A DNA stretch of 64,000 nt from Pocillopora damicornis (GCF_003704095.1 NW_020847079.1:62001-126000); one strand, 5' to 3'; counted from the stretch's first letter, positions 1,388-25,072 are shown. Made by a program: numbers and translations. The notes: generated by a model from the letters alone, not told the origin.

Positions 1388-1597
1388 AATCCCATAACTC
1401 CTAAGAGTGATTAGCATCTAATATCTCTGTACAGTATCACTCATTTATCACACGTTAAGTTCAAAAGAATAAAGGAAATGATCACCAACTAAAGAAGCTC
1501 TTGATTGTTAAACAAATTCTCCTTGTCAGGGCCCCAGGAAATGTATGGAGAACAGTATGGAGAATATGCATACTGATGTTAGGGTGATAAAGGGTAA
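1388..1597 (-). mobile_element. piggyBac-type MITE (~210 bp), subfamily B, degenerate
   Basis: Shares the core gctcttgattgttaaacaaattctcc...aacagtatggagaatatgcatactgat...aaagggtaa with copies at ~21056, 27669, 36005 and 37605. Confidence 0.7.
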
Positions 1598-2415: not shown

Positions 2416-2985
2416 TTGATGCTTTCCTGTGATTCAAATTGTATCCCACTCTGCCTTCGTAACAAAGCCGTGTTCAACATTTCCAAAGCCTCTGTTTCAA
2501 AACGAGGGTAAGAGCTGAAAACTCTTTCAACCTCAGCGGTGCCAATTCTTTTTTACTCGGAAGGAAAAATGTCTAGTCGTTCTTTGTTCTCTTCCACCCT
2601 AAATATGGATTTCAGATTCCATTCCAAAATCAGAGTGATCGGCTCTCTTTTCTAATCTGGTGTAGGTTACTTTCCAAACACAACTTTCCTTAAAGAATGA
2701 TTCGAAAATTTCCCTCTACACTTATCGGTTTCAAATAATGATACTAATCAACTTGTTGGAGTGAAAAAACGCTAATAATGGCGTTCCAAAACTCTGCATT
2801 ATAGGCTAACCATCATATCACATTGAGATACAGCGATGAGAAAACTTTCGACCACATCGCCTGACGAAGATTACCGTGTAACAATGGCAGTATAAATTTC
2901 TCGATCTCAGGTAGTGACTCTAAATTACAAGACAAACGAGTCAAAGTTTTATTTCGTGTATCTGGCTATCCTAGGTGGTAACATG

Positions 2986-3152
2986 ATGGGCCATTTTCGA
3001 TAAATCAAAATTCTAACATGGCTCCGAGGCCGGGGGAAATAGAACAAAATAAATTAATCTTTCATCCCTTAACCTCGATTCGATTTTTTTTGGTTTTATT
3101 TTCCCAGGCCTCAGAGCCAAGTTTGAATTTTGATATATCGAAAATGGCTTAT
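2986..3152. mobile_element. MITE with ~55-bp terminal inverted repeats
   Basis: atgggccattttcgataaatcaaaattctaacatggctccgaggcc pairs with ggcctcagagccaagtttgaattttgatatatcgaaaatggcttat. Confidence 0.8.
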
Positions 3153-3979
3153 TTAACGACAGTGACCGAAGAGTTATTCGATAATTTTCGGACACCTCTC
3201 AAAGTCCGTAAACTCATTTGAATTACAAATAATTTCTTGAAGTTAATATTCATATTTTCGATCAGTCTTGCACGTGGAAAGAGCGTAAGAAGTTCAAGAC
3301 ATTTCAGCGTCTTTTCTAGCTTCTACAGGGCTACAAAACACATCACTTCCACCGTCATAATCTCAGATATGGTCCGTTTTGTCGAGTTCTGCGTGAGTTT
3401 CTTTCTTCGTTCGAAGTTGCTTAGTAAGGTGGCTCATATTCCACGTCGCAGATTGATGAATGCTATCCGTCTCCAATTATCTTGAGGTACATTACCTAAA
3501 TATAAATGCATATTTCATAGAAGTTCAGTATCTCGTCGTTGCCTTCGAAATTAAGCTAAAATTGCAGATTCGGACACAATAAGGAAAAGCATACCATACC
3601 AACTACAGCCGCCATGACAGTTCTTACTACGCCACGTGATTTAATGAGCAACACTGACAATTTTTTGCTTTAAGATCAGTTTATCAATAGTGTAATTATT
3701 TATCGCTTTTTCAGTTGATTTCAATACTCGTTTTTATTCTACATTCAGTCACTTTTGCTTACGGTATGTCAAATTAAGACTTGCTATGAACGCGCCTGTT
3801 GCTTTCCTGACACCCAATCACCACCGCAAAGTCCAATGGGTGATCGTGAAAAGGTTTCGAAGTAAATTCTTTTAAAGAAACCAGGTGACTTTAGTCCCCA
3901 TTTTTAAAAATGACGCTGCGAATGGCACAAATTCCTGTTTTATCTCGAATTAAGTAAAATATCAGGTATCTCGCGCGTG

Positions 3980-4125
3980 CTAACGTTCGAAGTTGGATCG
4001 TAAGGCTCAGGTTAAAAGCCCGGCTGGGTCATTGTGTCATGTACTTAGGCGAGGGAATTCAACCTCCACCTAAGAGCATAAATAGGTACCAGTGAAGTGT
4101 TAGAGAAATCTGTCAAAATACTTCA
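3980..4125 (+). mobile_element. tRNA-derived SINE fragment (related copies ~20085-20225 -, 34540-34960 +, 57260-57480 -, 59640-59935 -)
   Basis: B-box-like ggttaaaagccc followed by ggctgggtcattgtgtcatgtacttaggc...ataaataggtaccagtgaa...agaaatctgtcaaaat; similar blocks recur in the window. Confidence 0.55.
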
Positions 4126-4513
4126 GGGCGCCCGACCAGACGAAGTTTCTTCATACCATAGATACCGGAATATACCATAGTGGCTGTGGGAGTTATAATT
4201 AGTTTCGAGTAGAAAGGTAGCTTTTATGATCTCTTGTTTGACTTCTTTTGATTTAGACAGCGATTTTTATTATTCACACTAAACTGAAGTACATCTACTT
4301 ATTTAAAGAAGGGTATACTCGTATTCGAAATCGATTCAAACTCAAATATTATATTCTGGTTTTCTCCACAGCAAAAGTCAAGCATAGAATGAGAACATCT
4401 CAGAAAAAAAAATTCGAGAAAGGAAATGGAAACTGGTCAACTTCTTATATGGTCAGTATTTCAATTTTTGATAACGAATTGTGCGCTCGTGCGTCTGATC
4501 TGCTTTGAACACT

Positions 4514-4723
4514 TAACTCTTTCATTCCCAAGATCACATTAGTAATTCTCCCTACTGTCCCCCATACAATTCTTATGAAGTTAGTTTGGAGAAATTGTTG
4601 TTTGATCAACTAATTTCCGCTTATTGTTATGTTTCTTTATCCTCATCGCTTGTTTGCTTGATATTGCATTGATAATACAAGTAGAAAGTCTCTCTCGGTA
4701 ACCCATGGGAATTAAAGGTTCAA
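4514..4723 (+). mobile_element. piggyBac-type MITE, subfamily A
   Basis: ttaactctttcattcccaagatcacattagtaattctcc...ccatgggaattaaaggttcaa; aligns end to end with the copy at 47406-47617. Confidence 0.8.
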
Positions 4724-4888
4724 ACCTGGATTTAACGGACTACAATTGAAAACTAGCTAGGTGCAAAAGCAGAAACATTGATCTTATCCATTAGCCTACA
4801 GCGCTTTTGGCTTGATGATGATGGCAAAACACTGGTGTCAAAGAAATACGTAATGGCTATCGTGCTTGAAAATCCATCCAACCTTCCT

Positions 4889-4988
4889 NNNNNNNNNNNN
4901 NNNNNNNNNNNNNNNNNNNNNNNNNNNNNNNNNNNNNNNNNNNNNNNNNNNNNNNNNNNNNNNNNNNNNNNNNNNNNNNNNNNNNNNN
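4889..4988. other. Assembly gap (100 N, probably an unknown-size placeholder)
   Basis: Run of N. Confidence 0.99.
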
Positions 4989-7190
4989 TCTCATTTTTTT
5001 TCAAAAGCCAAAAAACGTTGATTGGTTTTGACCTTTATTCTAAGTTTCCTCAAAAGTTAATTTTTTTCAAACATTATAAATTAAGGAAAAACAAAAATAT
5101 TACCGAAATTTACCTTTAAAAGTCTGCCATATTAAGATAGACTGATAAAAGAGTTGACGAGCGAAATAGTGACCTCTTATTGTAAAATAATACAGACTAA
5201 GGCAGTCACCTTTTTAGTGTTACGGATATCTATATCTTCGCAAACGTTTCGAAGCGAGATCGTTCTACAGAACTCTACAGAAAATGTTTCTTTTTCTCAT
5301 TTAGCTATGCATTGACACAAATTAAACGGCAAATTTCAATGTTTAAAATTATGCTGCAAAGTCAAGGTTCTCCTCTCTTAGTTTAGGTTGCCTCTTGCAT
5401 TGTGTCAAAAAATCAGACTTTCTCTGGTAAAAGTAGATTTTTTTCTTTAAAATTGAAAAGGGATAAAAATAAAACAAACACAAAAAGTAGTTTTTAACCG
5501 AAGATTACTGCGGAAAAAAATTTTAAAATGTCTTTTCGAGTGAGAAATATGATGAAAAAAGTTAAAAAACTATAATTCGCTATCATTTAAAAACAAACGA
5601 AAAGCTGTATCAACTCAAATAATGTGGATATAAGTTCCTTTTCTAAGGATGAGATTTTTACTCCAAGGTAGTTACTGTTTTAGGCAATGAATCCACCATC
5701 AACGAATTTTTATGTGAGACCACTGAAAAATGTTTCCTTTAGTTTCCGAAGAAAGTTTGGATGTCTTGAGGTTGATTCAGATTTATCTGCAAACAACATG
5801 AATCTCCGCGATTATTTTTCGGGAAATTCAAAAAATATATATCGTTAGAATTAAAATATTTTACCTAGATCAGTGTATTAGGCATTTCTGAAGGCTTGAC
5901 TTAATCAATCATTCTCTCTCTGGAAAGGTTTCAAGTACTACCCATATATATCCTTTTGATCCCTCGTCAAGAAAACAAGAGAATTAAGGAGAAATGGTTG
6001 GAGCAGTAAATGCTAAAATTCTTCCAATAGAAAAGTTATCCTTTAGTTAGAGTTGTGTGCGTCTAGGAAAAGCGCGTTGAAGTTGTCAAAGAGTTCTTCT
6101 AAAACAGCTTACAATACTGTTCTTTTCGTAATGTTAATCTGCGCACAAAGATTACATTGATATTTCGACGTCTATAGTAGCAAAATGAAAATTATTTTCC
6201 TGATTATTTGATAAATTTTTTCAGAAACTATATGGTGAGAGGATAATACAAAAAATTCTAAACTTAATAGGAAAAGGTGTAGTTTTCTTTAGAACAGCAA
6301 TGTCTTCATTTGTGAAAATGGATTTTTCAATCAACAGATACACGACAGGATCTCAAAAGAAATTTGGAAAACATATTTAATATCTTGCTAATACAAAAGA
6401 TCATGATAGCTACATAAAGGAACAACGGAAACTGAACAAAAAAAGCTGAAAATGTTTTTTCAATAAATAAGAACTTCAATAATTTAAGCCTTACATGGAA
6501 GTCTCCTAGAAAGATTTCGATGTGTTCCTTTGGTGCTCTAGCTATCTATCAGCCCATCTGTCTATTAAAATGTGCACTTTGGAAATAGTAACCCTTCTTA
6601 ACTTTATTTTTTTTTCAAAAAAAAAAGACAAATTTTGTTTCACTAAAACTTAGAATTTTTTAAAATCGCAAAATGTTTGCTGAACGGAGGTAAAAGTTTC
6701 GTAAATACAAAATTAACTTTAGAATAAAAATTTAATTTTTTCTTTACAGTTATAGAACAAACATCTAAAAGTCATTGGACCTCTTTAATTTGAAACAAAC
6801 TACTTTTATAATAAGTTTGAGATTGTTTTATCGACAGTATCTAATTTCTTAAAGTTAAGTTAAAACCCCAACAGCAGACAAAGTTAAAAAAAGGTATCAA
6901 CAGAGAAATTTTAAACAAACAAAACGTCACCAAGAAAAAGTTATGAATGCCTTTGAAAAAAGAATTGCTCCGCTTGTCAGATGTTTAAAGATGATTATTT
7001 TTACATTTCAATATTTTTTCCGAAGGACATTTCTTTTTATTCTGTTTCTTTTTGCTTTTGATTCGCCTTTGTGTTCTTGTGGCAATGCCTGGCTCGTTCG
7101 CTGACCATATTCTCTCATCCTTCTGTAACTTTAAATTGTAATAATTCCAAGCAGCTTTCATCTTAAAATGAGAAGAAATGCATTGAATTA
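4989..7190 (-). pseudogene. Decayed AT-rich coding-like arm of an unclassified element (left arm, reading away from the hairpin module)
   Basis: Manual minus-strand translation gives long near-open stretches (IARAPKEHIEIFLGDFHVRLKLLKFLFIEK; DPVVYLLIEKSIFTNEDIAVLKKTTPFPIKF) with weak resemblance to the right-arm pseudo-ORF. Confidence 0.35.
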
Positions 7191-7495
7191 TAAGAGCTTT
7201 GAGAATTTTTTTCTGAAAAAAACAAATTCAGATAATAATTCTCGGAGCTCTCAAATATGAAATAATTTTTGCTCTTTTAAAGATTAAAAGGAAAATCGAC
7301 CAACGGGGCCTTGACCCCTTGGAGTTGCTTCAACAATTTAAATTAAACGACGGCGGGGATACGGCCGTCGTTTAATTTGAATTGTTAAACGTGCACTACC
7401 GCTAGACCACAGAAGCTTTTAAAAAAGCTTGTAAAATTACACTAAAACTAGGTTGGCTCCCATTGTTCATAGAAACAATGGTGAATTTTGTTTTA
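7190..7495 (-). repeat. Structured module, copy 1 (three stem-loops; main hairpin 7332-7386)
   Basis: 23-bp stem aacaatttaaattaaacgacggc / gccgtcgtttaatttgaattgtt with a 9-nt loop; reverse-complement homologue of 10470-10790. Confidence 0.85.
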
Positions 7496-7849
7496 TTCTA
7501 ATTGTTTTCATCCTCCTGAGACATGTAGCTGTATTATGTTCACCTTCAATTCTTGTTTACTTTTTTGCAGGTTGCTTGAATTTTATTATTGAAGAAAGAA
7601 AGTAGAGGAATTTTGTAAGGCTCTGTCAAAGCCAATAACAAGAACTGTTAAATAAAGTAGGAAATTTCGATTGTCATCTTACTACACAGAGTCGTAAAAA
7701 GTTTGTCGAAGTCAAACTATGCGTAAGTGAGTCTATAAAATTCATTATGATTCAAGTGGAGTTAGCAAAACAATCTAAGAAAATTTGTTTTGTTTTGAGT
7801 AAAACAAATTTAAATTTAAAAATTTGTTCTAAAGGCGCGAGTGAAAATT

Positions 7850-9905
7850 CATTCGCAAATCTGTCAGTCTATTAGTAGTGCAAGTGAGAGCACTGAATCT
7901 GTCAAAGATTAGAAGGAAAAGCGCTTGTTGAAAGTATTTCAAGGATAAGTCTAGTAATAGCTTTAGTCCATCTGAAGAGGTTTTTTTTTAATTTTTCAAA
8001 GCCTATAAATGGTTCAACTGAAAAGTTGCTCAAACATATGTCGTGTCAAGCCGTAGACGTAGTGATAATAGTATTTTTAAAAAGTAATTAGTCCAACAGT
8101 ACTAGTACAATTGAGTCTAGTAATAGCAATACAAATAAACATCGTTTTAGAATTTTGTCAAAGTCTAGTAATAGTAGTTCAAAATAAAGTCGTTTGAGAA
8201 TCTGACAAAGTCTAGCATTAGTAGTACATATAAAAAGTCATTTCAAAATCTTGTAATAGTTGTACAGATATTTTAAAATCTGAAAGTCTGGTAAAAGTGC
8301 AATACAAAAGTTGTTTTAGAAAGTCTAGTAATAGTAGTACAAAAAAAACTCGTTTGAGAATCTGTCAAAGTCTAGTAGTAGCAGTACACATAAAAAGTCT
8401 TCTCAAAATATAGTATTAGTAGTACAGTTGAAAAGTTCTTTTAAAATCTGAAAAGGTGTAGTAGTAATGCAATAGAAAAGTCGTTTTAGAATCTGACAAA
8501 GTCTAGTAAGTGTAGTACAAATAAAAAGTCGTTTGAGAATCTGACAAAGTCTAGTAATAGTAGCATAAATAAAAAGTCGTTCGTTTGAGAATTATGACAG
8601 TCTAGTAAAAGCAGTACAATTAAAAAGTTGTTTTAGAATCTGACAAAGTCTAGTAAAAGAAGTACAAATAAAAAGTCGTTTGTTTGAAAATTTTGACAGT
8701 CTAGCAAGAGCAGTAACATTTAAGAGTTCTTTTAGAATCTGACAAAGTCTAGTAATAGTAGTGCAAATAAAAAGTTGTTTTAGAATCTGTCAAAGTCTAT
8801 TTATAGTAGTACAAANNNNNNNNNNNNNNNNNNNNNNNNNNNNNNNNNNNNNNNNNNNNNNNNNNNNNNNNNNNNNNNNNNNNNNNNNNNNNNNNNNNNN
8901 NNNNNNNNNNNNNNNNNNNNNNNNNNNNNNNNNNNNNNNNNNNNNNNNNNNNNNNNNNNNNNNNNNNNNNNNNNNNNNNNNNNNNNNNNNNNNNNNNNNN
9001 NNNNNNNNNNNNNNNNNNNNNNNNNNNNNNNNNNNNNNNNNNNNNNNNNNNNNNNNNNNNNNNNNNNNNNNNNNNNNNNNNNNNNNNNNNNNNNNNNNNN
9101 NNNNNNNNNNNNNNNNNNNNNNNNNNNNNNNNNNNNNNNNNNNNNNNNNNNNNNNNNNNNNNNNNNNNNNNNNNNNNNNNNNNNNNNNNNNNNNNNNNNN
9201 NNNNNNNNNNNNNNNNNNNNNNNNNNNNNNNNNNNNNNNNNNNNNNNNNNNNNNNNNNNNNNNNNGAATCTGTCAAAGTCTAGGAATAGTAATGCAATTG
9301 AAGAGTCGTTTTAGAATCTGTCAAATTCTACCTATAGTAGTACAAAGAAATAGTCGCTTTAAAATCCAAAAGTAGTAGTGCAAATAGAAAGTTGTTCAAC
9401 ATCAGTCAAGTCGAGTAACAGAAGTGCCAATCAAAAGTCTTTCAAATATTTGTGAAAGTTTCACAGTGGTAGTGCAGATAAAAATTAGTTTTAGAATTTG
9501 TAAGTCTTGTCATAGTAGTGCATATTGAAAAGTCGTTTCAAAGTCTAGAAATAGTAGTGCGATTAAAAGGTCGTTTAAGAGTTTGGCAATGTCTAGTAAT
9601 GGTAGTGCAGTTGAAAAGTCGTTTTATTATCTGTCAAAGTCTAACAGTAGTAGTACAAATTAAGAATCGTGTCATAATCTTTCAAAGTCTCTCAATAGAA
9701 GTGCAATCAAACATTCGCTACAAAATCTAACAGTAGTAGTGCAAATAGAAAGTTGCTCTGCATCAGTCAAAGTCTAGTAATAGAAGTGCAAATCAAAAGT
9801 CGTTCAAAAATTTGTTTAAGTCTAGCAGTAGTAGTGCGAGAGAAAAGCATGTCAAAATGTAGAGGTAAAAGTGCAAGTGAAAAGTCGTTCTGTAATCTGT
9901 CAGTT
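7850..9905. repeat. Tandem minisatellite, 48-bp unit (gaatctgtcaaagtctagtaatagtagtacaaataaaaagtcgtttta), interrupted by a gap
   Basis: Dozens of diverged head-to-tail units, most homogeneous at about 8140-8815 and 9266-9360. Confidence 0.92.
8816..9265. other. Assembly gap (450 N) inside the 48-bp array
   Basis: Run of N flanked on both sides by array units. Confidence 0.99.
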
Positions 9906-10469
9906 TCATTTCACTTAATTTAATCTAATGAAGAGAATTATTGTGTAGCTGCAGTGTTAGTGAGAGGACGGACACCAGAGGCAATTCGATTTCAGTCACA
10001 GTCTCAACTCCAAAGTTTATTCAATTTTTGTATTTGTATTTTTAAATGTCTTGAACTTCCTCCTTGTCAGGGTTGAAACCTTAAAGAGATCGAAAACAGA
10101 TATTCAATTTTAAAAGATCACCACAACAATTGCATTGAGAGTTTAAACCACAAACCTTACATACATGAGATCTAATACTTGAAATTTTTGTTGAGAACGC
10201 AAATTAAATGTTTTATGCTAATTCTAGTTTGCACGCTTTCCTTTTGGTCCCTTTGAATAAAACTCATATGCAAGAATCGCTTGCTTCGAGTTTTATCCTT
10301 GAGTGGCAAGAAATATTGGGACTGGAAAAGCTTACCTCGAAATCAAAGTGCATTTTTTTAGAGGAGAGCAAGTCGATAATAGAACTGCATATCAAAATGT
10401 TTTCTACACAGGTAGAAATCTGAATCAAGCGCATGTCAAACATTCTCACGAGGGTGATACATGTACTAG

Positions 10470-10790
10470 GTGAACCTATTGTTTTTATGAACAATGGGAG
10501 CGAACCTACTTCTAGTGTAATTTTGCCAATTTCTCTTACCAAAAGCCTCTGTGGTCTAGCGGTAGTGCACATTTAACAATTAAAATTAAACGGCGGCTGG
10601 ATTCCCCCCAGCCGTCGTTTAATTTAATTGTTAAAGCACATCGGAGGGGCTCAGGCCCCCCTGATCCGATTTCCTTTTAATCTTTAAAGAAAAATTTTAG
10701 TTATTTTAAGATCTCCGAGAATTTTTTCTAGGGATTTTCTTTTTTGAGAGAAAAAATTTCCCGGAAAAACTTCTCGGAGATCTCAAAATT
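10470..10790 (+). repeat. Structured module, copy 2 (main hairpin 10572-10635)
   Basis: tttaacaattaaaattaaacggcggctgg / ccagccgtcgtttaatttaattgttaaa, then atcgga-ggggc-tcag-gcccc...tccgat and agatctccgagaa...ttctcggagatct; inverted homologue of 7190-7495. Confidence 0.85.
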
Positions 10791-10799
10791 AGACAGATT

Positions 10800-13700
10800 C
10801 TGATTTAGAGAGTAAAATAAAATTTACGTCTGAAAATAAAAAATGATGGTGAATGGCCGTCGTGCCATGCCCTGAAGACATGCGCAAACCACGGGAACAC
10901 AAAGCCAAACAATTAACAAACGTAAATGGGAATTCCACAACAAGAACTGGAGAACGAGAGGAGGTTTGTATATATCTGGTAAAAAGTGCACCGTAAAAAC
11001 ATCATTTGTAAACTTAGAAAATATGAAACAAACCTATAATCCTAAGTAATGTTGGCACCTTAAAAAACAATAATGGAAATGATGTTCGCAAAAATAAAAA
11101 AATTGTAACTCCAAAAATTTTCTTCTCCCTACTAAATGCAGTCACAACTTTTGATTCGTAGTTTTCAGGGTTTACAGGTCAGGGTTTTCAGTTGATACGT
11201 ATCAGAAAACTCACTCGTTCGCTGCGCTCACTCGTTCATTTTCTGATACTACACAACTCGTGAATAAAAATCGTACGCGCGCATTTTCCATGAAGTAATC
11301 TCTATATATTCAGGAATTTTAATTATTTCTGTTTTGTATTTAATTTTCACTTGTATAGAATTTTACAGCAATAGCATTGATTTACAAGTGTCCCTTTTTT
11401 CATTCACCGTGAAAAACTCTTGAAAAATAAATCGTTTGAGTTGTATGACCGTTTTGTCCTTCGCAAAGTTTGCCGTTCAAAAATATTATTGGTAAAATGC
11501 ATCAATTTTTTTTTACTTGAAACGGATATTGAATTTTTCAGAAACGTTTGTGACTTACAACTGCTCTCTTTTCTCTACCATTTTCATTGAAATATGTCCT
11601 TGGTGAGTTCTAATAGCAAAGTTGAGAAATCTCCTTGACTTTACAAAAGATTGAGTTATTTCAAGTATTATTAGAGAATATGTCCACCTTTCATGCGAAA
11701 GATTTCTCTTATAAAGAAAAATCACTCCTATCACCCGACAAGTTTGATTTAAAAGTAGAAATCTTCCCTTTTGCTCTCACAATTTGAAACAACATGAGGT
11801 GGTCATCAATTCCTATTTTTGCTGATATATACTTCCGTATACATACCCTCGTCTGACACGAAACGCCTTTTCATGAAAAGTTTGAAGATAAATTATACGC
11901 ACACATGACATGTAAAGAAACCTACTGAGTTAATAGGTAAAATTTCACAGCGATGTTTGACAACCTTGTTCGTCTATAGATGACTCTCCAAGCGTTCTGT
12001 CTAGAATGTTTTTTTCACCATAATTGAAAAGCAAATTTAACTAATATTTTGGGCTTTGTCAAGGATAAGAATGGTTCCAAACATTTTCACCCCAGGAACA
12101 CTAAATATAAAGATTTAGACCCATTTTGTTATGTGACAAAAAGATAGCAGTCGTACACTAGCAAACCTTAAGGCTTGCTTCTCAATCGAAAAATTTGTGG
12201 AAATTTAAGTTTTCTTGATCGTCACGAAAAGTAAACAAAAAAGAGAAAATAATTTTGTTCTAAGAACTACTGAAAACTCATCAGCTATCCAGCAGATTCC
12301 TTTTTCTCAGTCAAAGCGTTCACACTCAATACTACAAGGATATAGAGCTTTTTCGAAACTTTGTTTTCGGCGATGTATCTATTACTTAAATAAAAATAGA
12401 TGCTTCACAGTAAAACTGAAAATTTAAAGAAATTGCGATACAACTTGTCCATTTAATCTCCAAAACCTTTTTTCACCAAAAAGTTTTCGTTTCTAAGATA
12501 TCTAACGGGGGATGTTTGTTTTTTTTTTTTTCGTAATTTTTCAAAGCGATAGAATTGTTGACTTGAAGGAAAAAAAATATGAAATATACATACAGACACT
12601 CGCCTTTCGCGATCTTGAACGATCCTTTTGCTAGGTTTAAAGAGAATGTGATTTCATTTCAAATTACATAGGTTGTCTTCATTGTTTGATTTATTGAAAA
12701 CAAAAATCTAACAACTTACCAGGCGTAGGAGCTCATTCCGTATCGAAATTACGCTTATGTTTGGTTCTACCACATAATTTGACTTACACCCGCGCAATAA
12801 CAACTGTCGCAAATTTCGGTTGAGAAATCTCCCTTTTGAACTCAAAACCTGTTTATCTAGTTTTACGAAATTTCCCACCGTCATTTGCTAGAATTTTTTT
12901 ATTCTTTCGGCATTAAAGTTTATTTTTTGAGTTCAAAGATATTTTTCAGGTCATATTGTAATTGAAATAATTTTTAATTTAAATTATTTCTGTTTAGTAC
13001 TTAATTTTCACTTGCATATAATTTTCCAGCAACACCTTTGAAATACAATTGTCTCTTTGTAAATAAAAGCGTTCCATTTCTATTTTAAAAAAAAATATTC
13101 AACCTTAAATCTATCATATAGGCATTAATTCACCTTGAAAACTCATTTTGGAAAAGAAAATGGATTGTTTGTGGTGTTTGGTGTTCGAAAAAACGATGAG
13201 CAATATTTTGTTTTGCATCAATTTTTTTCACTTGAAAAGACTGGAATTTTTTCACAAACGTTCGTAGCTAACAATTGCCCCATTTTCTCATAGAACGTAC
13301 CATTTTTCATCAAAACGTTTCCATGGTGAGTAGTGATAACAAAATTAATAACTTTACTTCAGGATACCAAAACTTGGGTTATTTTAAGCATTATTATCGC
13401 ATAAAAAAAACCTATCACCCTATCACCCTATCTTTTTGCTATCACAACACTATTTTCTGCTTTTGTTGATTTGTACTACCATGTGAAACATACTGTAATC
13501 TCTCATGAAAAACTTCATGGAAAGGTTAAAGAATCATTCTAAGCGCACATGACTGTTAGGAAATCTATTGAGTCAATTGGTGAAAATTCATGAGATGGTT
13601 CATAACCTTGCCGTCTATAGACGACTCTCCAAACGTTTTTTTGTTTGTTTGTTTGTTTGTTTGTTTTTCTGTCATTCCTTTCTGTACCATGCTTGCAAAA

Positions 13701-14620
13701 GCAACTTAAGCTGATATTTTGGGCTTTTTTAGGAAGAAAATGGTTCCAAACGTTCCACCCTTAAGAGACACTCAATAAATAGATTTTAGGCCTACTGTAG
13801 TTTGTAAAAAAGAGAGCTGCAACCCTTGAGGGACGCTTAATCGAGAGAGTAATGGGACATACTTGTTTTCTATTGAAATTTTTCTTGCTCCTCTCGTGAA
13901 GTAAACTAAAAAGGCAAACTCGAGTACTGAAAGTCATCAGATATGCAACAATTCCTTTCCTTCACTTAAAGCATTTATTTTCAATATGACGAGTTGTCAA
14001 AAGTTTTTTTACGTTTTGACGATGTATCTGTTACTTGAAAAGATAGACACCTCACAGTGAACGTGAAAGTTTACAGATATTGTAATTTGTGCAATTAATC
14101 TTCAAAAACTAATTACGGCACGAAAGTAGATTCTTTGTTTACAGAATATATTCGAGAAGATACTATTTTCATTGAAAGATCTCCTTGGTGAGTTCCAATA
14201 CCAAAGTTGAGAAATCTCCTTCTTGCTACAAAACCCTGTTTTTTAAGTATCATTAAAGAATATATAATATAAAAGAAATTGCAGTTTTACTAATTATCTC
14301 CAAAAGCTATTTATGGTTGAATGGAAAATTCATTGTTTCTACGATATTCCTTTTGATCTAAAAGTCTAGTCTGCTCGTTTAGTTTTATGAAATTTCCCTC
14401 TCTTTCATTTTGCTAAGTATCTTTTGATTTCATCGGCGCTGCAGTAAATTCCTTTGAAAAGTTTCTTAACACGAGAAAATCGACATTACGATAGCTTTGA
14501 TTTTTTTTTTGGAAAAAAAATAGATGCCTCATGGTGAAACTGAAAATTTAAAGAAATAGTATTTTTTTCCAAATGATCTCCAAAAAATTTTATGGTTCAA
14601 AAAACAATAAATTCTTTGTT
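10800..14620 (+). pseudogene. Decayed, internally duplicated coding-like arm of the unclassified element (right arm)
   Basis: About 11580-12470 keeps one frame with scattered stops (QKIELFQVLLENMSTFHAKDFSYKEKSLLSPDKFDLKVEIFPF...MTLQAFCLECFF). 11320-12480 is repeated in diverged form at 12980-14120, with further partial copies at 14165-14600. Confidence 0.5.
11195..11308. mobile_element. Half of a palindromic MITE inserted in the right arm
   Basis: tatcagaaaactcactcgttcgctgcgctcactcgttcattttctgata...cgtacgcgcgcattttccatgaagtaatctctatata; a CpG-rich island in AT-rich context. Confidence 0.6.
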
Positions 14621-17615
14621 ACCGAGGAAGTGATGAACGCATGGGAAAATTCAATTCCAAAAAGCTTAAAAGATGCTGCAAGTTTAGCGTAACACTTCTC
14701 AAAGGTAAGGCGTTTTTGTTAATACAATGAAATAAACCTGTCAAAACTGCTGGCTTCTCTTGATACTAATAATCAAAACAATTGGAACAAAATGTGCGCA
14801 GTGCTTTCTTTATTTAGAAAATTTACAACAGAATTCAAAAGCACCTAAGCAATTATACTAAAGCAATTATTCAGCCAAGGCGAAGTGAATATTGTTCAAT
14901 AATCCCATGGTAGCATTCGTTGTAAATTTGGCCACGTTCTCCAAGTTACATTATCATGGATTTCTTTGAGGTACTAACCAATAACAAATTGAACAACTTA
15001 CGTGTAGGTGAGGTCGTTTCTTTTTCCCAGTTTGCAGTCCTCTTTTCCAGGAACACTTTTCCTTTTCCGTGGTTCTGTTCTGCAATCCAATAAATACATT
15101 GATAATTGACATGACAAGCCAAATAAACCAACAAATCTGACACAAATAAGACAAAAAAAGAGAAAAAAGCCGCCAATTATTTGTCTATCTATTATTTGCA
15201 CTGCTGGTTTTGTTGGGTCTTAATAGTCGCGATTTTATCTGGCGTCGGCTAGAAGAATAATTCGAGAAGTAATTTGTAGGAACAGGTCTGACGACAGTTC
15301 TTTTTCAGAACTACCCTTGCCCGACCATCATACTAAAATTTCTTGAAAAAAGTAAATTGTTTAGGTCGAGACGGAGTCAAGGGGCTCTTCAATGTTAACC
15401 TAAGTTGAAGCTACCCTCAAAGCTTAGCAACTTATCAGTCACAATTCATTATTTAGTTCCAAAGACTCAAAAATCATCCGAGCGTTTCAGATTCTACAAG
15501 AAAAATAGTATTTCGTGCGCAGCGTGCCCAAAGTTCCCCTTTTTCCATTAAATGAGCCCCTTTGGCGTTTGAACCACGTCTCCACAAAAGTTGTCACATG
15601 TCTAAAGCCGATTCTTTCGGAGTGGTTTAGGAATTAACCATAAAATCCCTCTCTTTTTACATTTTTGGTTTTCCTTCTCCAAACTTTTAATTCACATTTA
15701 AACTGAGTTTCCCACGAGTACAGTTTCTTAGTGGAAAAATCATGTAAATTGAAAGCTGAGAGTAACACGGTTCAAAAGTTAAGCAACAGCAAACAAGAGG
15801 TAAGAGAACGAAAAAAGAAACATTGCCATATCAACGAAACAGTTTGGAGTAGTTCAAACAATGGCAGCCTACGACGAGTGTTTTGGCGCCCTCCTCACCT
15901 ATACTTAATTGTCACGATTTGCTTTGAAATGCCATTAATGCAATACAATAAAGAACTTACGTTAAGTTTCGTTCTTTTACATCACTCCGTGCATTCCACA
16001 TTCCAGCTTTCCAATCTTCTTTTTCAATCTTAATTTTTATTTCCTTCTCACGACTCTGTAAATCCGATGAGTACACTGATTAAATAAAATGTCGCACACC
16101 ATTTAATGACCGTCCATGCTAAGAATGGCCGAAGGGAAAGGACTCTTAGAAAAGATGCAGAGTGATCCAGCTTAATTTTCTTTCTCAAAGAGGCATTTAT
16201 CGGTAGATTTTAAGCATTCATCAGTAAGTTTTATTACTCATCTCCACCTCTTTTTTTCTTTTTTTCCTTACTTTTTGTTTAAGGTAAGCAGTTTACGTGG
16301 TTAGTACGAAGGCTGGCATCTCGCTTTTCACGAATTCTAGGTACAAAATATACACCAAATATACATCGCACAAAAGTTTACGTCTAAAAAGCATGATCCA
16401 TGAACGATGAGAACCAACGGCTTAATGGAAAATGTTTGCACGGTTACATATGGATGGTTTCTATCATTTACCACGTTCTAACAATTGTAGTCGTCATAGC
16501 CGTTGGGTCTCGTCGTTCATTACTTACGCCACTTAGGGTCAAAGTTTTTGTAATCGAGAGTATATTGAAGTTCATGTTTGACTTACCAATCGACAACAAG
16601 TTCGCAGTCCATAGCCCATAGGACGCCAAAATCATTTTCCTTATTATGTTTTCATTTATATTACACTTTGAAACTAGGAGTACCGAAGCACTTACCATAA
16701 ATCTGAGAAGAAAAAACTGTAGTAGTCCTGATACTTACTAGTATTCAGTAAGGTAACTCGATAAACCCAGAGCACAGAGTCCCAAGGTACCGCTTAACTA
16801 TGAAAAAGAGGACAAATTCAACTTAAAGACGAGATAAAATTTTGTTGAAGAAGTTCTCTCTGGCAACTTTTAAAAAGATGTGATAGAGTCGACATTTAAG
16901 ACGAAGTTATAAGAAAGGTCGAAGTACAAGAATTAAACGCAACGACATAAGCAAATAACCTATCAAAGTTCTGCATATGATTCATTCTCTCACCTCGTGT
17001 AAAGTTACTGGTATTCTGCAAAAGTATACTAATATTTCCATATTTGGCTGCTGATCGCAGGAAAAGGAAACAGTCGTCTTAAAGATACTGTTAGAAACAG
17101 TTACGAGCGCAGAAACCGGCAGAATATGTCAAGGTTCTGTTCGAAGAAGCAAAACACGATAACTTCTTGAACCACATGTCACACTGACCCAAGGTGTGAG
17201 ACAAACATGAATGAATAATTAATTTTTGAGACAATTTCGTCGTGCCCTTTGCTTTCTGCATAAATTGATCACAAAAAATTCAGAGAATTTCATATTTGCC
17301 CCAATAGTTCTTTGTTAGGATTACATCTGAAATAAAAAAAAACCTCATAATTCATCTATAAACTTATTTCAGTTTTCCGATTAAATTTAAGTCCACAAAT
17401 ATAATTTACGGCCAGACGGCTCTTTCCGGACCAGCTTTAGTTAACCTCTCCGTCAAACCCTCAGCCCTACACAAGTCAGCTTTCATTGTGATTTTCTACA
17501 AGATCGGGTTGGTGAGGCCATGCAGGTCATATCATTATGGCCGAACGAGAAAATTTTCTAGTCCGGTCCTCCCACTCAGTCAATATGTACATAGAGTCTT
17601 AGGGTAATTCAGTAT

Positions 17616-17706
17616 TAACAACTGAGTTGACAACGTAAATTGGCCACCGTAACTGAAGAGTTTGAAAACTGACGTTTCGAGCGTTAGCCCTTCGCCAGAG
17701 CGATTG
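17616..17706 (-). mobile_element. Penelope-like terminal-repeat fragment with a mutated minimal hammerhead (CTGGCGA-agggctaacgctc-GAAACGTC)
   Basis: Same family as 32806-32870, 46025-46195 and 63185-63430; catalytic core changed from CUGANGA to CUGGCGA. Confidence 0.7.
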
Positions 17707-18215: not shown

Positions 18216-18812
18216 TCGCCAATCTTTATTACAAAGTCTATATCAAAGAAATTTCAAGGCTCAATCAAGCAGCTTTGTTGCGTAAAATTCGTCAGTGAAA
18301 CACGAGATTAATCAACCTTTATTCATTTCCTCCTACTATGACGACAGATTACATTTCGCAAACTGATTGTTTTAAGTCAAACACTGAAAATGTATTATAA
18401 CCGTATCGGTCTCTGAAAAAATGATGACTCATCCCACTGTCGCCGATTTGCAAAAATTTGGATTGCTGACTAGTCATCGGACTTGAAGCTGAAAAGATTA
18501 TTTACCTCACTAATCGAAACTGAAATTTATAATTTTTTCCTCAATATTGTATTGAGGTAAAACAATTATAAATTTGAGTCAGAAATGTCAGAAATGACAG
18601 ACAAGCTAGTTGAGTAGATGCCGAACGAAGATAAGTTTTCATCAAAAGAGCCGACCTTTTTGAGTGGCAGCTAAATACTAATTTATATTATTCATCGTTT
18701 TATTTTGCAGAGGAGGTGGTCAATTTTTATGATAATTTCTCAGTTATTTCGTACCGAGCGAGAAGAATTTCTTTCATAAGTATTTACTGCCAAAAATTAC
18801 AACTTAAAACTA

Positions 18813-19985
18813 ATGGAGGAATCAACCTTGAACTGCATAAATTCGACGACTTTTTCACCAACTCCTCGGGAAGAGGAGTGCTTTTCCAGAGATCCGATGC
18901 CATTGAAAATCATCCGAATTTGTGCGTATTGCATTGTGATCTTCGTCTCTTTAGTTGGTAATCTCTTGATAATTGCGGTGACGAGGAGAACAAAAATGAC
19001 AAGTAGAAAATCTATCCATTATCTGATTGTGAACATGGCCATGGCAGACATATTTCTAACAGTGTACATGCCTCGGATGATAGCTCTGGCTTATGTGGGT
19101 TACGAATGGCAGATTGACAACCTGCCAGGCGAGATATTCTGCAAAATTTCAACACTGCTCAATCACGCTTGCATGACTGCATCGATTCTCACTGTTGTGG
19201 CAATCAGTTTTGATCGGTTTTTAGCTGTTATTTTCCCATTACGATCGTCACTCCTCACAATTCCAAGAACCAAGGTGATCATAATTTTCATATGGCTCAC
19301 GGCTATTGCATTTCGAGTACCCATGGCATATTCAGCAAGCCTACACAACTTGAACGGAAAACCAAATTGTTACATTGTTCTAGATGAGACATTCGGTGAT
19401 GGAACCAAAAAAGTCTACTACTTTCTAAATCTCTTCAGCCTTTTTGTGATACCATTCTTTATCATTTTGATTTTATACACTGCCATTTTGGTAACTCTAA
19501 AGAAACGTAAACCACCACAAGTTGACACTACTCTGAATATAAACCCATGGCAACAGCGTAAAGAGGAAACTACAAGAAGAGTCCTACAACTGGCAACAGC
19601 TGTTGTGATGGCATTTATAATTTGCTGGTTTTTGTACTTCATTCGTCTTATCTTGTTCTCCTACAACGTCGATGTTTCATGCCATATTTTATTTTTGCAC
19701 CTTTTTCTCGCCCACTCTAACAGCGCCATCAATCCATGTCTTTACGTGGTATTCAGTGAGAGCTATCGACACGGAGTTAAAAATATCATCTCGCAGTATT
19801 TTCCAAAAGTTTGTTGGACAGAAAATTATGTTTTACCATCGTCCGCAGCAGTTGCAAACTCTAGAGCTACATATCAAGAAAAAGCCGACGGAAAATTTCC
19901 CCATCAACGAAATTGTAAAGGAGAGAGTACCATGATCGCAGATAGGGCAATGGAGAATTCCATTTCTGATGAAGACGCAGTGTAA
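18813..19985 (+). CDS. Rhodopsin-like (class A) GPCR, neuropeptide-receptor-like, 390 aa, intronless CDS
   Basis: Seven hydrophobic segments with GN (TM1), MAMAD (TM2), C3.25, DRF, CWFL and NPCLY; 5'UTR splice acceptor ttttattttgcag at 18710. Confidence 0.95.
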   Translation: MEESTLNCINSTTFSPTPREEECFSRDPMPLKIIRICAYCIVIFVSLVGNLLIIAVTRRTKMTSRKSIHYLIVNMAMADIFLTVYMPRMIALAYVGYEWQIDNLPGEIFCKISTLLNHACMTASILTVVAISFDRFLAVIFPLRSSLLTIPRTKVIIIFIWLTAIAFRVPMAYSASLHNLNGKPNCYIVLDETFGDGTKKVYYFLNLFSLFVIPFFIILILYTAILVTLKKRKPPQVDTTLNINPWQQRKEETTRRVLQLATAVVMAFIICWFLYFIRLILFSYNVDVSCHILFLHLFLAHSNSAINPCLYVVFSESYRHGVKNIISQYFPKVCWTENYVLPSSAAVANSRATYQEKADGKFPHQRNCKGESTMIADRAMENSISDEDAV

Positions 19986-21780: not shown

Positions 21781-22860
21781 TCAACTTTGCTCATCGTCAT
21801 TTTGTTGAGTTTTCCACAGATTCATTTTGCTTGTCGGAAACACCTTTTGCGAGGAATTCTCCTCGCTAAGAATACCACTACAAAGCGCGCAGCGAACCAG
21901 AATGCGTTTCAATCCTGTACGAAAGTTCTCGTTTAAAGCGAAGCACAAACATGGATTCACTGCACTGTTTAGATCAGCCAAAAACAATCTCAAAAATAAA
22001 ACTTCACAGCCCACTTGTATTTTGTACGAAAATAAAATGAGTTGGACAAAGTAGAGCAACCAGCAGAGTACAAATGCAGCCACCACTATCAACACCATTC
22101 GAAGAACTTTCTTCTTTATCCGTGTGTCTCTTGTATGCTCTCTTCCTGCGATTTCTTCTCCGGGTGCTTTTCGTAGTTTCAGGGAAATTAAAATGGCCGA
22201 ATACAGCACAACTATCAATGCTAAAGGCACAGCAAAGAGGCCAATGAGGGTAAAATTGTAATAGGTCTTTTCGGCTCCTTGGTAGAACACATCGTCTAAT
22301 GACAGATGACAACTCGTTTCGCCGTTGTTGGTGTTAATAAGTTTCAGGCCATACAACATCGGCAGACGAATAACGACGGATGAGAACCATATCATTGTAA
22401 TAATGATTCGACAAATTTTCTTCGTAATAATGGTCCTCAACGGCAATATCACAGCGAAAAATCGATCAAAGCTGATGGCTACCACAGTGAATATGGAAAC
22501 GCAAATGGCAGTTTGATGCATGAAAACAGCGAACTTACATACCACAAGTCCCAATGTACCGTATAGCTGCCATTTATAGCTATCATGCCACACAGACAGC
22601 GAGCGAGGCATGTACAATGTTATTAAAAGGTCTGCAGTACACATGTTGACCATGAAAAAGTTAACCGTTTTCCTCAGGCGCTGTTCTTTCCATACCACGG
22701 CAATGATCGCAGAATTTCCAAGAAGAGATACTACAAGCAGCATGCAATAAGGAACGATCCTGGCCATTTTAACAGCTGTTAAATCATTCTCAAAGCAGTC
22801 CTCGTTTTGGACGCTTTCCTTCTTGGGGGTATAATTGAAGCTTTTGTTGGCCAACGACAT
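21781..22860 (-). CDS. Rhodopsin-like (class A) GPCR, paralogue of 18813-19985, 359 aa
   Basis: 7TM with GN, TAD, DRF, CWLL and NPCLC; shares TVVAISFDRF, LILFSY and LFLA..NSA.NPCL with its neighbour; acceptor ttttcccag 7 nt upstream of the ATG. Confidence 0.95.
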   Translation of the reverse strand: MSLANKSFNYTPKKESVQNEDCFENDLTAVKMARIVPYCMLLVVSLLGNSAIIAVVWKEQRLRKTVNFFMVNMCTADLLITLYMPRSLSVWHDSYKWQLYGTLGLVVCKFAVFMHQTAICVSIFTVVAISFDRFFAVILPLRTIITKKICRIIITMIWFSSVVIRLPMLYGLKLINTNNGETSCHLSLDDVFYQGAEKTYYNFTLIGLFAVPLALIVVLYSAILISLKLRKAPGEEIAGREHTRDTRIKKKVLRMVLIVVAAFVLCWLLYFVQLILFSYKIQVGCEVLFLRLFLADLNSAVNPCLCFALNENFRTGLKRILVRCALCSGILSEENSSQKVFPTSKMNLWKTQQNDDEQS

Positions 22861-25072
22861 CGCCAGGCTGGGAAAATTAAAATCAGTGAATTCCTTGCCG
22901 CACTACTGAGCTGTTGGGAAAGGTCTTACAGGTGATTAATATTTAGAGAGTCTTTCATTTCTTGGTCATAGTACTCACGAAAGGTATTTTCCACTAAAAT
23001 TCCGGTTTAGGGAAAAATCCTTCCGAATGAAAATGTAAAGTGATCTTTTTCTCAATTTGTTATGAATTTAAATAATAATAGAACGATGTGTTGTTTTTTT
23101 TTTGGACACATAAAACCGCCCAGGTTGAATTAAGAACTTCAAATACACCTGCAAGACTTCCAAAGAGTATAGGATCTACCCTCGCTCAGCAGAAAATCTT
23201 AATAACAGAGTCCTTAACTTACCAATAGCAGTTTAAAGAAAAATCCGATTAGTTTTACTCCGATGTAATTGCTTAGTGTACGTTTTAGCTAAGGCGAAAA
23301 CCTTCAACTAATCTGATCATGTTACGACGTCCATAAACAAACAGTTACGAGTGGGTATTTTGTAAATGCACCTTGTGTTAGGTTTGTCATCCAACGAACC
23401 AATAGTTCGCCAAGATAGTGAAGCACAGTTCAAAATAAATACAAACAGTGTCATGAAATAAAGGGAGCCGCTGATATTCGGTGCCTTAGTCTGAACTAAT
23501 TATGTACTTTTAGTGGGAGCGGAAGGGAATTTTTGAATGCTTAGAAATGGTATTGACTAGTATTTTCAAGCATTCAAAAAAATCCCAGTCACTGAAACAG
23601 CGTAAATTTTTGTTGCGGCAATAATTTTTGGACTTTTGTTCAATAGAGCATTAGCACATAAATTATCGGAATACCACTCTATGATATCGTTTCTAAGGAT
23701 TTTCATTTGTGAGGTTATTCGATTCGAAGTAAATATTTGTACATAGTGGAATTTTGCACAAGGTTTTGACATTAAATAACATCAAGTTTGGAACCCGTCA
23801 GAAACACCAAAACTGTCGGCTTGAATTTTTTTCATCGTTGCACCTGTCAAAACAACGACAGTCTAAGTGTAAGACTTTGTTTAATCAAATTCAAAGCGTC
23901 AATAACCAACTTTCAGCCTGTACGAAAATCGACTCAAATACATCTACTGATGTATACAAAATGGAACGCTTTCTTGGTAGGAGTAACACGATGACCTTCG
24001 CTGCTAAGAGGAAAAGAGAACTCAACTTAAGACCACTTTATCTTTGAAATTATAACCCCCTGTTGAATAATGAGTTTAATCTCATCTGCAAAAAATGAAC
24101 GCTCAATTTTCATATCGCATAATTCTTCGCTAGAAAAAAAAATTCCCCTCTGTTTAAACAGGTTATAGTTCCACAAATAGATGTTTTTACAGTTGCTTTG
24201 TGTTTTGCCAAGTTTTCACGAGTTGTCTAAGCACCTTAACACCTCTAAGAGAACAAATGACGTATGTTTTGAGTTATTTTACCTTTAAAAACATCCCGTT
24301 TTTTTTTTTACAAGGGCTCTACATATGCGTTAGAAAAAAACGCGATGGCCAGAAAGGTATAATACTTGGTAATAGACGTTAGACACAAAATGGTGACAAC
24401 GATTTTTTTACATTTAATAATCGTTTCACAGTTAGGTATTTACGTCTAGAAAGGGAAATACTATTGACGAAATAAAAGCCAGCAAAAAAGAGGATTATGC
24501 GCAGACAATTCTTCGTGAAAATAACTTATATCAACAAGATACCTAAGCGCACAACTAAAAAAAAATTTTTGACGAATGCGTAAAATTGTCGGATATGCAC
24601 ATCTATTTACATTAGGTCAGTTACAACTACAAGGCCAAACCAAGACTAAAAAGTCCTCCCTGCTTTAACTCGCCTCGGTGGGTTGCATCACAAGTTTTGT
24701 ATAAGTTTTGTATTAAGTTATTTAAAAACTCCTAGCTTGACTGGTCAAGATTTTGTTGATTTACAGGTATAAAGCTAGATTTTATGAAAGTGGCGGAGAT
24801 GATCTGCACATAAGCACAAAAACTTGTGGATGGTCTTCATGAAAAGAATTGCAAAAATTTTAAAGAATTCTGCACAATCTTATTCCTTTTTCACAGATCG
24901 GATTTTAGGAACATTTTAAGACAAAAATAACACTAAAATCCAAATAAAGAAAAATAATTTCTGATTTCAACTTTTTAAAAAAAGTACTTGAGACTTTCTC
25001 TTCCAAAGAATGATCGTAAATACTCACTGGCACCGCTTTAAAAGAACGCTTTCTATCGCTGACTTTAGTTCG

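What the first reader, a model, noticed from the sequence alone, without database searches (positions are those of the whole stretch)
7190..10790. Two inverted, diverged copies of a three-hairpin module flank a tandem array: candidate unclassified mobile or viral element
Seen: 7190-7495 and 10470-10790 are reverse-complement homologues that share exact blocks (TCTGTGGTCTAGCGGTAGTGCAC; GCTCCCATTGTTCATA) but are clearly diverged elsewhere. Both keep three stem-loops: (i) a 23-28 bp AT-rich stem with a GC-rich tip and a G- or C-rich loop; (ii) a GGGG/CCCC hairpin whose basal helix differs in sequence but still pairs (ATCGGA/TCCGAT versus CCAA/TTGG); (iii) a GAGMTC..GAGAA/TTCTCGGAG inverted repeat. 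Homology extends on both sides of the hairpins, so they are not simple TIR ends. Inference: structure kept despite sequence change suggests a single-stranded DNA/RNA cis-element, such as an origin, resolution or packaging site of a rolling-circle (Helitron/Helentron-like), Polinton-like or endogenous viral element. I recognise no transposase, Rep, RT or integrase here.
Basis: partly seen in the sequence, partly recalled or inferred. Interest (0 to 1): 0.72.

Follow-up and report, generated by a model that had tools for sequence, protein, structure and literature searches.

The report
Coral tRNA-like hairpin cassette family
The two mirror-image hairpin blocks are real, but they sit in the middle of a roughly 17-kb non-coding unit repeated about ten times in this coral genome, and their unusually well-kept core looks like a tRNA gene with a long hairpin in place of its anticodon arm, so it likely makes a small structured RNA rather than serving as the end signal of a virus or transposon.

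Summary
In detail: the inverted modules are 79% alike and fold well (z -7 and -10). They are not element ends. Eight loci carry the same inverted pair around a related array, a ninth is a diverged relative, and homology runs 4-7 kb beyond the modules on both sides. The ~17-kb unit has no ORF or Pfam hit, no terminal repeats, no target duplication and no viral match. It is an old giant inverted duplication: both arms hold related non-coding exons with kept splice sites, and RNA contigs show splicing of the right arm. The 90-nt core departs from the group majority at 4-5% of sites against 15-16% in its flanks, but shows almost no covariation, and the claimed compensated basal helix is private to the window's right copy. 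Read outward, each core has a tRNA-like 5' head, a 25-bp hairpin, a weak B-box-like arm and a T run. Best reading (0.4): a host-kept, Pol III-type hairpin RNA cassette; expression untested. Rivals: a cis signal of an old mobile element (0.25), or a DNA boundary or binding site (0.2). The scan's earlier notes held nothing like it.

The parts
3150..17333 (.). Dispersed non-coding unit (about 17-19 kb in gap-free copies; this copy and C279 extend further left, to about 700 bases before the window); old giant inverted duplication centred on the array
4889..4988 (+). Assembly gap; other copies hold 3.4-5.4 kb here, including left-arm homologues of exons B/C with kept AG and GT on the + strand
7075..7190 (+). 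Outer, decayed copy of the cassette (left), converging on hp1
   Evidence: weak model match 7065-7122
7193..7253 (.). hp1 left: centre of an old palindrome joining the two converging cassettes
7292..7416 (-). Inner cassette, left: head 7416-7391, hp3 7389-7329, hp2 7318-7305, first T4 at 7295-7292
7417..7481 (-). Conserved block upstream of the left cassette (two short dyads with variable spacers)
7560..7571 (+). Splice-acceptor-like site, AG kept in 6 of 6 aligned copies; no RNA support seen
8114..9907 (+). Degenerate 48-bp tandem array with a 450-N gap (8816-9265); the unit differs by locus (48, 50, 53-56 bp; 41 bp in C1472)
10330..10335 (-). Splice-donor-like site, GT kept in 8 of 8 aligned copies; no RNA support seen
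10478..10544 (+). Conserved block upstream of the right cassette
10545..10678 (+). Inner cassette, right: tRNA-like head 10545-10570, hp3 10572-10635, hp2 10646-10659, first T4 at 10675-10678
10669..10823 (.). hp1 right (arms 10669-10741 and 10751-10823)
10830..10906 (-). Outer, decayed cassette (right); its head at 10906 still scores 18/26 against tRNA 5' ends
15002..15079 (-). Exon C (non-coding, purine-rich); joined to exon B in one RNA contig; donor kept in 7 of 7
15961..16055 (-). Exon B (95 nt, paralogue of exon C); exact piece in an RNA contig; donor kept in 7 of 7, acceptor AG in all 8 rows shown
16739..17648 (-). Exon A: RNA contigs of three studies stop at the donor at 16738; it holds the well-kept end block and runs past the unit's right edge

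Best explanation
Each module is a pair of converging, likely tRNA-derived cassettes inside a ~17-kb non-coding unit that the genome carries about ten times, and the well-kept inner cassette is likely transcribed outward by RNA polymerase III into a ~125-nt RNA whose 25-bp hairpin would be a substrate for Dicer-type cutting or a dsRNA-binding protein. Shown: the unit, its copies in unrelated surroundings, its old inverted-duplication layout, splicing of exons A-B-C, the 3-4-fold lower divergence of the core, and the order head - hairpin - B-box-like arm - T run. Inferred: tRNA ancestry, purifying selection (rather than conversion) as the cause of conservation, Pol III transcription, processing, and spread by DNA-level duplication with introns kept.
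For: Core constraint: hp3 plus head departs from the side majority in 37 of 709 (left) and 22 of 609 (right) cells, against 15-16% in the flanks (Fisher 6e-13 and 5e-18; cells are not independent). Left-right identity is 0.88-0.90 in hp3 and the inner block against 0.42-0.56 just outside, and is the same within and between copies (0.840 vs 0.840 for the core). Head: 12 of 16 inner heads match this genome's own tRNA 5' ends at 18 or more of 26 letters, best tRNA L110. Only 12 of 127,946 window 26-mers score that high, and 3 of them are cassette heads. The same 19-mer heads unrelated tRNA-SINE-like repeats in 2 of 2 metagenome loci read (their SINE reading is my inference). A B-box-like 11-mer falls in hp2 at +99 to +104, score 7.7-10.7 in 8 of 16 (background 0.0003 or less). 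The first T4 run lies at +117 to +131 in 16 of 16. Outer cassettes start their homology at the same +1. The diverged relative C1472 keeps module-array-module. Splice sites are kept on both arms: donors 7 of 7 and 7 of 7 against a 0.54 background, left-arm AG and GT 5 of 5.
Against: No direct evidence that the cassette is transcribed: the RNA runs were contigs of poly(A) or random libraries, and depth over the module is a sum over paralogues. B-box scores are below real tRNAs (14-20), the hp2 loop varies freely, and right-type copies lack the conserved A. The acceptor stem is not intact; default ARAGORN and Rfam find no tRNA. The opposite strand is nearly as free of T4 (2 of 16) and also ends in a T run. 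G-U versus A-C cells do not pick a strand (18 vs 14). There is almost no covariation. The head test was chosen after seeing the motif. One left module (C1425) carries right-type letters, so conversion happens. No target for the hairpin arm lies outside the family (22 of 22 exact hits inside). How the unit moved is unexplained.
Confidence: 0.4

Rival explanations
1. The unit is an old, large non-autonomous mobile element (Helitron-like or unclassified), and the modules are internal cis signals kept because the lineages that spread needed them.
For: Copies lie in unrelated surroundings with introns kept. Six of the eight right ends aligned stop within about 100 bases of one point, while left limits vary. 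There are internal tandem repeats and hairpins. Helitrons capture gene fragments and bypass terminator hairpins (PMC6431247, passages).
Against: The modules are 4-7 kb from either edge. No TIR, target duplication or HINE end layout was found. A hairpin near the right edge is clear in only 2 copies. No near-identical pair of copies was seen (65-83%), and each array has drifted to its own unit. Splice sites are kept.
Confidence: 0.25
2. The cassette works as DNA: A-box/B-box-like and dyad sites bind TFIIIC or another factor and act as boundaries or enhancers around the array or for the spliced non-coding transcripts.
For: Conservation is of sequence, not of covarying structure. The upstream block has two short dyads with variable spacers. 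The inverted pair brackets a satellite-like array in 9 loci. tRNA-like boundary elements are established in yeast and vertebrates (recalled).
Against: A 25-bp hairpin kept at 96% paired cells and a terminator-distance T run are not needed for a boundary; the B box is weak.
Confidence: 0.2
3. A functionless relic of duplicated pseudogenes or lncRNAs whose cores stay alike through gene conversion among inverted repeats and hairpin-templated repair.
For: One conversion tract is seen (C1425 left). There is no coding signal, the RNA depth is low, and indels are frequent.
Against: Within-copy left-right identity equals between-copy identity, and left and right mostly sort apart in the tree. Kept splice sites on both arms are not explained by conversion of the cores.
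Confidence: 0.1
4. Endogenous virus or Polinton remnant with the modules as origin, resolution or packaging sites.
For: Size of 15-20 kb; long palindromes; tRNA-hairpin hybrids exist in a herpesvirus (PMC11092647, passages).
Against: 0 Pfam families in six frames of window 2900-17500 and of the 4.5 kb hidden by the gap. No long ORF in any copy, no codon periodicity, no terminal repeats, 0 matches in viral contigs, and spliceosomal introns.
Confidence: 0.03

Closest known systems
tRNA-derived SINE heads (PMC5786205, search listing and start of abstract)
   Same: 5' head resembling a tRNA 5' half with A box; the same 19-mer heads SINE-like repeats in two metagenome loci
   Different: Not found as solitary high-copy insertions (16 of 17 pattern hits are in this family); a long hairpin lies between head and B-box-like arm; no LINE-type tail seen
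Gammaherpesvirus TMERs (PMC11092647, passages)
   Same: Proposed logic: a tRNA-like part serves as Pol III promoter for a hairpin RNA
   Different: In TMERs a whole tRNA is followed by the hairpins; here the hairpin replaces the anticodon arm, the acceptor stem is broken, the locus is chromosomal and nothing is shown to be expressed
Helentrons / HINE / DINE-1 (PMC4067079, passages; PMC7492417, listing)
   Same: Non-coding, central tandem repeats, short GC-rich stem-loop followed by T's
   Different: HINE subTIRs are 12-15 bp and lie within 60 bp of the ends; here the inverted parts are about 280 bp, internal, on both sides, with kilobases of shared flank
FAM230 lincRNA family in human low-copy repeats (PMC6162681, PMC5906017; listing and start of abstracts)
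   Same: Multi-copy spliced non-coding genes spread by DNA duplication and carrying an AT-rich breakpoint motif
   Different: No sequence relation tested or implied; here the copies are 65-83% alike, on many scaffolds, with a constrained tRNA-like core
Coral CMITEs (PMC2872659, passages)
   Same: Coral repeat whose internal part is better kept than its ends
   Different: CMITEs are about 100 bp with TIRs and TTAA duplications; none of that applies here

Membership tests
Helentron/HINE | 12-15-bp subTIRs within 2-4 and 38-60 bp of the ends, 3' palindrome near the end (PMC4067079) | tested here: not met
   Modules lie 4-7 kb inside shared sequence; no inverted match between the unit's ends
Helentron/HINE | Central tandem repeats, no coding capacity | tested here: met
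Helitron (canonical) | 3' hairpin followed by CTRR, sharp ends, no target duplication (recalled) | tested here: inconclusive
   A 20-nt hairpin near the common right edge in 2 of 8 rows, no CTRR seen; left edge varies
Helitron/Helentron autonomous | Rep/Helicase ORF | tested here: not met
   0 Pfam families; no long ORF
Polinton / endogenous virus | Polymerase, integrase, ATPase or capsid genes | tested here: not met
   two copies scanned with Pfam (one nearly whole, one 4.5 kb), the others by ORF length only
Polinton / TIR transposon / MITE | Terminal inverted repeats and target-site duplication | tested here: not met
   ends could not be fixed, so a short decayed TIR is not excluded
tRNA gene | Cloverleaf with acceptor stem and anticodon loop | tested here: not met
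   ARAGORN 0 genes; Rfam none; relaxed ARAGORN gave inconsistent calls
Type 2 Pol III gene | A box near +8 to +19 | tested here: met
   18 or more of 26 letters against own tRNAs in 12 of 16; 12 of 127,946 in background
Type 2 Pol III gene | B box downstream | tested here: inconclusive
   Score 7.7-10.7 in 8 of 16, real tRNAs 14-20; a second weak site at +51
Type 2 Pol III gene | T4+ terminator after the body, none inside | tested here: met
   16 of 16; weak, because the other strand is nearly as T4-free
Type 2 Pol III gene | Pol III occupancy and a discrete transcript | not testable with these tools
   Only long-RNA contigs were available
Type 3 Pol III gene (U6-like) | PSE plus TATA at fixed spacing | tested here: not met
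   One U6 promoter locus compared by eye: loose likeness on the opposite strand, no TATA; U2 search empty
tRNA-SINE | Solitary dispersed copies with a LINE-derived tail | tested here: not met
   matches only in this family's loci, bar one chance hit
TMER | Whole tRNA followed by pre-miRNA hairpins | tested here: not met
   Hairpin lies between head and B-box-like arm
miRNA gene | Precise mature and star reads from the hairpin | not testable with these tools
   No small-RNA data; Rfam miRNA matches are all far below gathering score

The most novel reading that the evidence does not exclude
A host-encoded family of tRNA-scaffolded hairpin RNAs: Pol III transcribes a broken tRNA whose anticodon arm is a 25-bp dsRNA, made from about 20 constrained cassettes nested in convergent spliced non-coding genes, and Dicer turns it into small RNAs that silence or regulate the locus's own antisense transcripts. 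This would be an animal counterpart of viral tRNA-miRNA hybrids with a new layout.
Probability: 0.22. Interest if true: 0.78.

Novelty: new variant of a known kind. Interest (0 to 1): 0.5.

Why it matters
If the cassette is transcribed, corals make a tRNA-scaffolded hairpin RNA of a layout not found in the eight literature searches run here. It would give a natural Drosha-independent route to small RNAs in a lineage where small-RNA origins are debated. Even if it is not, this is an unannotated 17-kb non-coding family with kept splice sites and a sharply constrained 90-nt core, with exact coordinates that one look at existing small-RNA or Pol III data can test.

Tried and rejected
Misassembly: rejected (8 loci, 3 gap-free). 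Coding array: no codon periodicity in 35 exact units, and a 116-aa frame from C279 found 0 of 802 candidates among longer proteins (weak evidence). Coding unit: 7 of 1,230 windows at p<0.01, as chance gives. Terminal repeats: the right-end profile does not hit left ends of the main family. Longer shared right flank: it is a separate 47-bp satellite. Rfam: 11 matches, none at gathering. U6-type promoter: not matched; the U2 search rang nowhere, so it says nothing. Strand from G-U bias: not decisive. Viral contigs: 0. Metagenomes: 3 hits, none of this family among the 2 read; all 3 scored E 0.03-0.08 with the model. Module RNA: one 600-nt contig carries letters of the C1935b right module and summed depth reaches 32 in one run, but paralogues add up and DNA may be present, so it is not counted as expression; bins without cover are not counted as silence. 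Centromere-like role: considered, but two copies share one scaffold and copies sit among genes. Hammerhead or other ribozyme: no Rfam hit. Literature: motif search gave 4 unrelated papers. Supplements of 10.1101/2025.03.15.643469 (coral miRNA lists) were not seen and may hold these hairpins. Whether the segment between the modules inverts in living DNA, and what fills the gaps, remains open.

Full report
Observation. The two regions are reverse-complement homologues, 79% over 287 columns. Each folds far better than shuffles (z -7.4 and -10.2), and a degenerate 48-bp array with a 450-N gap lies between them. The hp2 basal helix is kept in 7 of 8 left copies, but the flanking helix scored only 1-2 bp in all 7 right copies. 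The ATCGGA/TCCGAT helix is seen only in the window's right copy. hp1 arms fit their own partner best in 6 of 14 modules.

It is part of something larger. A search of the own genome with each module (21 and 20 candidates, all scored) found the inverted pair at 8 loci: the window, C279, C382, C1285, C1425, C1935 twice and C1986. A diverged pair around a 41-bp array lies in C1472, and single modules in C1951, C4119 and C2081. Of 6 pairs measured, 3 have no N between the modules, so the layout is real. Homology continues from about window 3150 to about 17330, at 65-83% identity. The window and C279 share sequence further left, to about 700 bases before the window, where it starts at a promoter-like site. 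Six of the eight right ends aligned stop within about 100 bases of one point; left limits differ by copy. No terminal repeat or target duplication was found. Beyond the edges the loci carry unrelated sequence and genes. RNA runs that hold parts of it are labelled coral or marine; earlier scan notes call the host a stony coral.

No coding capacity. No ORF of note lies inside any copy. Pfam found 0 families in six frames of window 2900-17500 and of the 4.5 kb of C1425 that the window's first gap hides. Codon periodicity is at chance level, in the unit and in the array. An array frame found no protein relative. The core 19-mer has 0 matches in viral contigs.

A giant old inverted duplication with spliced exons. 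RNA contigs from three of four studies stop at 16738, a minus-strand donor. One contig piece is exactly 15961-16055, and one joins it to about 15079-15002 (contigs show presence only, at depth 4-12). These two donors are kept in 7 of 7 copies each, against 0.54 for any such dinucleotide. Over all donor-like and acceptor-like sites the rates were 0.47-0.61, so only the RNA-chosen ones stand out. Profiles show inverted homologues of these exons in the left arm, with AG and GT kept in 5 of 5 copies and reading frames broken in 3 of 5. C4119 has the end block on both sides, and C1951 ends its right arm with an inverted left block. So both arms carry the same kind of exons pointing to the centre.

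The module itself. Each module is an old palindrome centred on hp1: an outer decayed cassette and an inner kept one converge; in C4119 the two arms are still 80% alike. The inner core is constrained: 3.6-5.2% departures from the side majority against 15-16% in flanks, and left-right identity of 0.88-0.90 in hp3 and the inner block against 0.42-0.56 outside. There is no excess within copies, and left and right mostly sort apart in a tree, with one conversion tract. Read away from the array, the cassette begins with 26 letters that match 5' ends of this genome's tRNAs (23 distinct tRNAs from the 30 best of 45 hits): 18 or more matches in 12 of 16 heads, a level reached by 12 of 127,946 window 26-mers, three of them cassette heads. 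Then come hp3, where the anticodon arm would be; hp2, with a B-box-like 11-mer in 8 of 16 that is weaker than real ones; and the first T4 run at +117 to +131 in 16 of 16. The acceptor stem is broken and tRNA finders report nothing by default. The other strand is almost as T4-free, and wobble counts do not choose a strand. The head motif also starts unrelated SINE-like repeats in two metagenome loci. In this genome 16 of 17 head hits and 22 of 22 hairpin-arm hits are in the family, so there is no parent SINE family and no outside target in the assembly.

Mechanism. Most likely (0.4), a tRNA-derived cassette gained a foldback hairpin, was duplicated head-on within a non-coding gene, the gene was duplicated in inverted form around the array, and the whole unit spread by DNA-level duplication. 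The inner cassettes have since been kept because Pol III makes a ~125-nt hairpin RNA from them. Anatomy, constraint and splicing are shown; ancestry, selection, transcription and processing are inferred. Rivals: cis signal of an old mobile element (0.25), DNA boundary or binding site (0.2), relic kept alike by conversion (0.1), virus or Polinton (0.03).

Comparison. It fails the end criteria of HINE/Helentrons (PMC4067079, passages read) and of coral CMITEs (PMC2872659, passages). It lacks the genes of Polintons and Helitrons (PMC6431247, passages). It resembles TMERs in logic but not in layout (PMC11092647, passages), and the FAM230 lincRNAs in mode of spread (PMC6162681, PMC5906017; listing and start of abstracts). 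A coral ncRNA survey (10.1101/2025.03.15.643469, passages; supplements not seen) mentions nothing like it in the passages shown. Eight literature searches found no description; Dfam and Repbase could not be checked. Look-ups of earlier scan notes showed no report of this family.

Verdict. Real, non-random and apparently undescribed, but not the viral or rolling-circle end signal proposed. Interest 0.5; new variant of a known kind; expression data would decide it.

Noticed in passing
window 18780-19985 (+) and 21781-22902 (-): Two single-exon ORFs (401 and 373 aa) that read like rhodopsin-class GPCRs by eye, facing each other just right of the unit; RNA runs from the unit's exon A toward them.
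   Followed up: no
window 1395-1595, 4510-4730, 11191-11308, 14617-14910, 17600-17705: High-copy short repeats inserted in or beside the unit; the one at 11191-11308 is 96-99% identical to copies elsewhere, so it is young. 2990-3148 is a 64-bp-arm inverted repeat found only in this copy.
   Followed up: partly
L068 9330-9515 (just left of the window): Homology with C279 starts at a promoter-like site followed by a splice-donor-like motif on the + strand; it may be the first exon of a left-arm transcript.
   Followed up: partly
C1425, C1285, C1935 (both copies): A separate 47-bp satellite lies beside or inside 4 of the unit's copies, on both sides in inverted orientation in C1425; its genome-wide frequency was not measured.
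   Followed up: no
L037 (C1285), L034 (C1935b), L032 (C382), L061-L062 (C165): Array pieces or arms appear in both orientations between N gaps, and C165 has a 95%-identical inverted duplicate of the right end; these could be scaffolding flips or real inversions.
   Followed up: no
window 11315-14600: Three internal paralogous blocks (about 11320, 12980, 14160) with kept donor-like and acceptor-like motifs; probably duplicated exon-intron units of the same family.
   Followed up: partly
L106, L111, L113, L114, L116, L120-L123: Nine of the 23 distinct tRNA hits belong to one repeat family with shared flanks, probably a tRNA-derived repeat rather than true tRNA genes; they inflate the tRNA profile used here.
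   Followed up: no
L034 about 5135-5776 (-): A frame that reads like a DNA-transposase fragment (MULE-like by eye) inserted in the array of the C1935b copy only.
   Followed up: no
L075 700-1600: Two tandem U6 copies with a shared upstream element and TATA; the element loosely resembles the module's upstream block on the opposite strand.
   Followed up: partly
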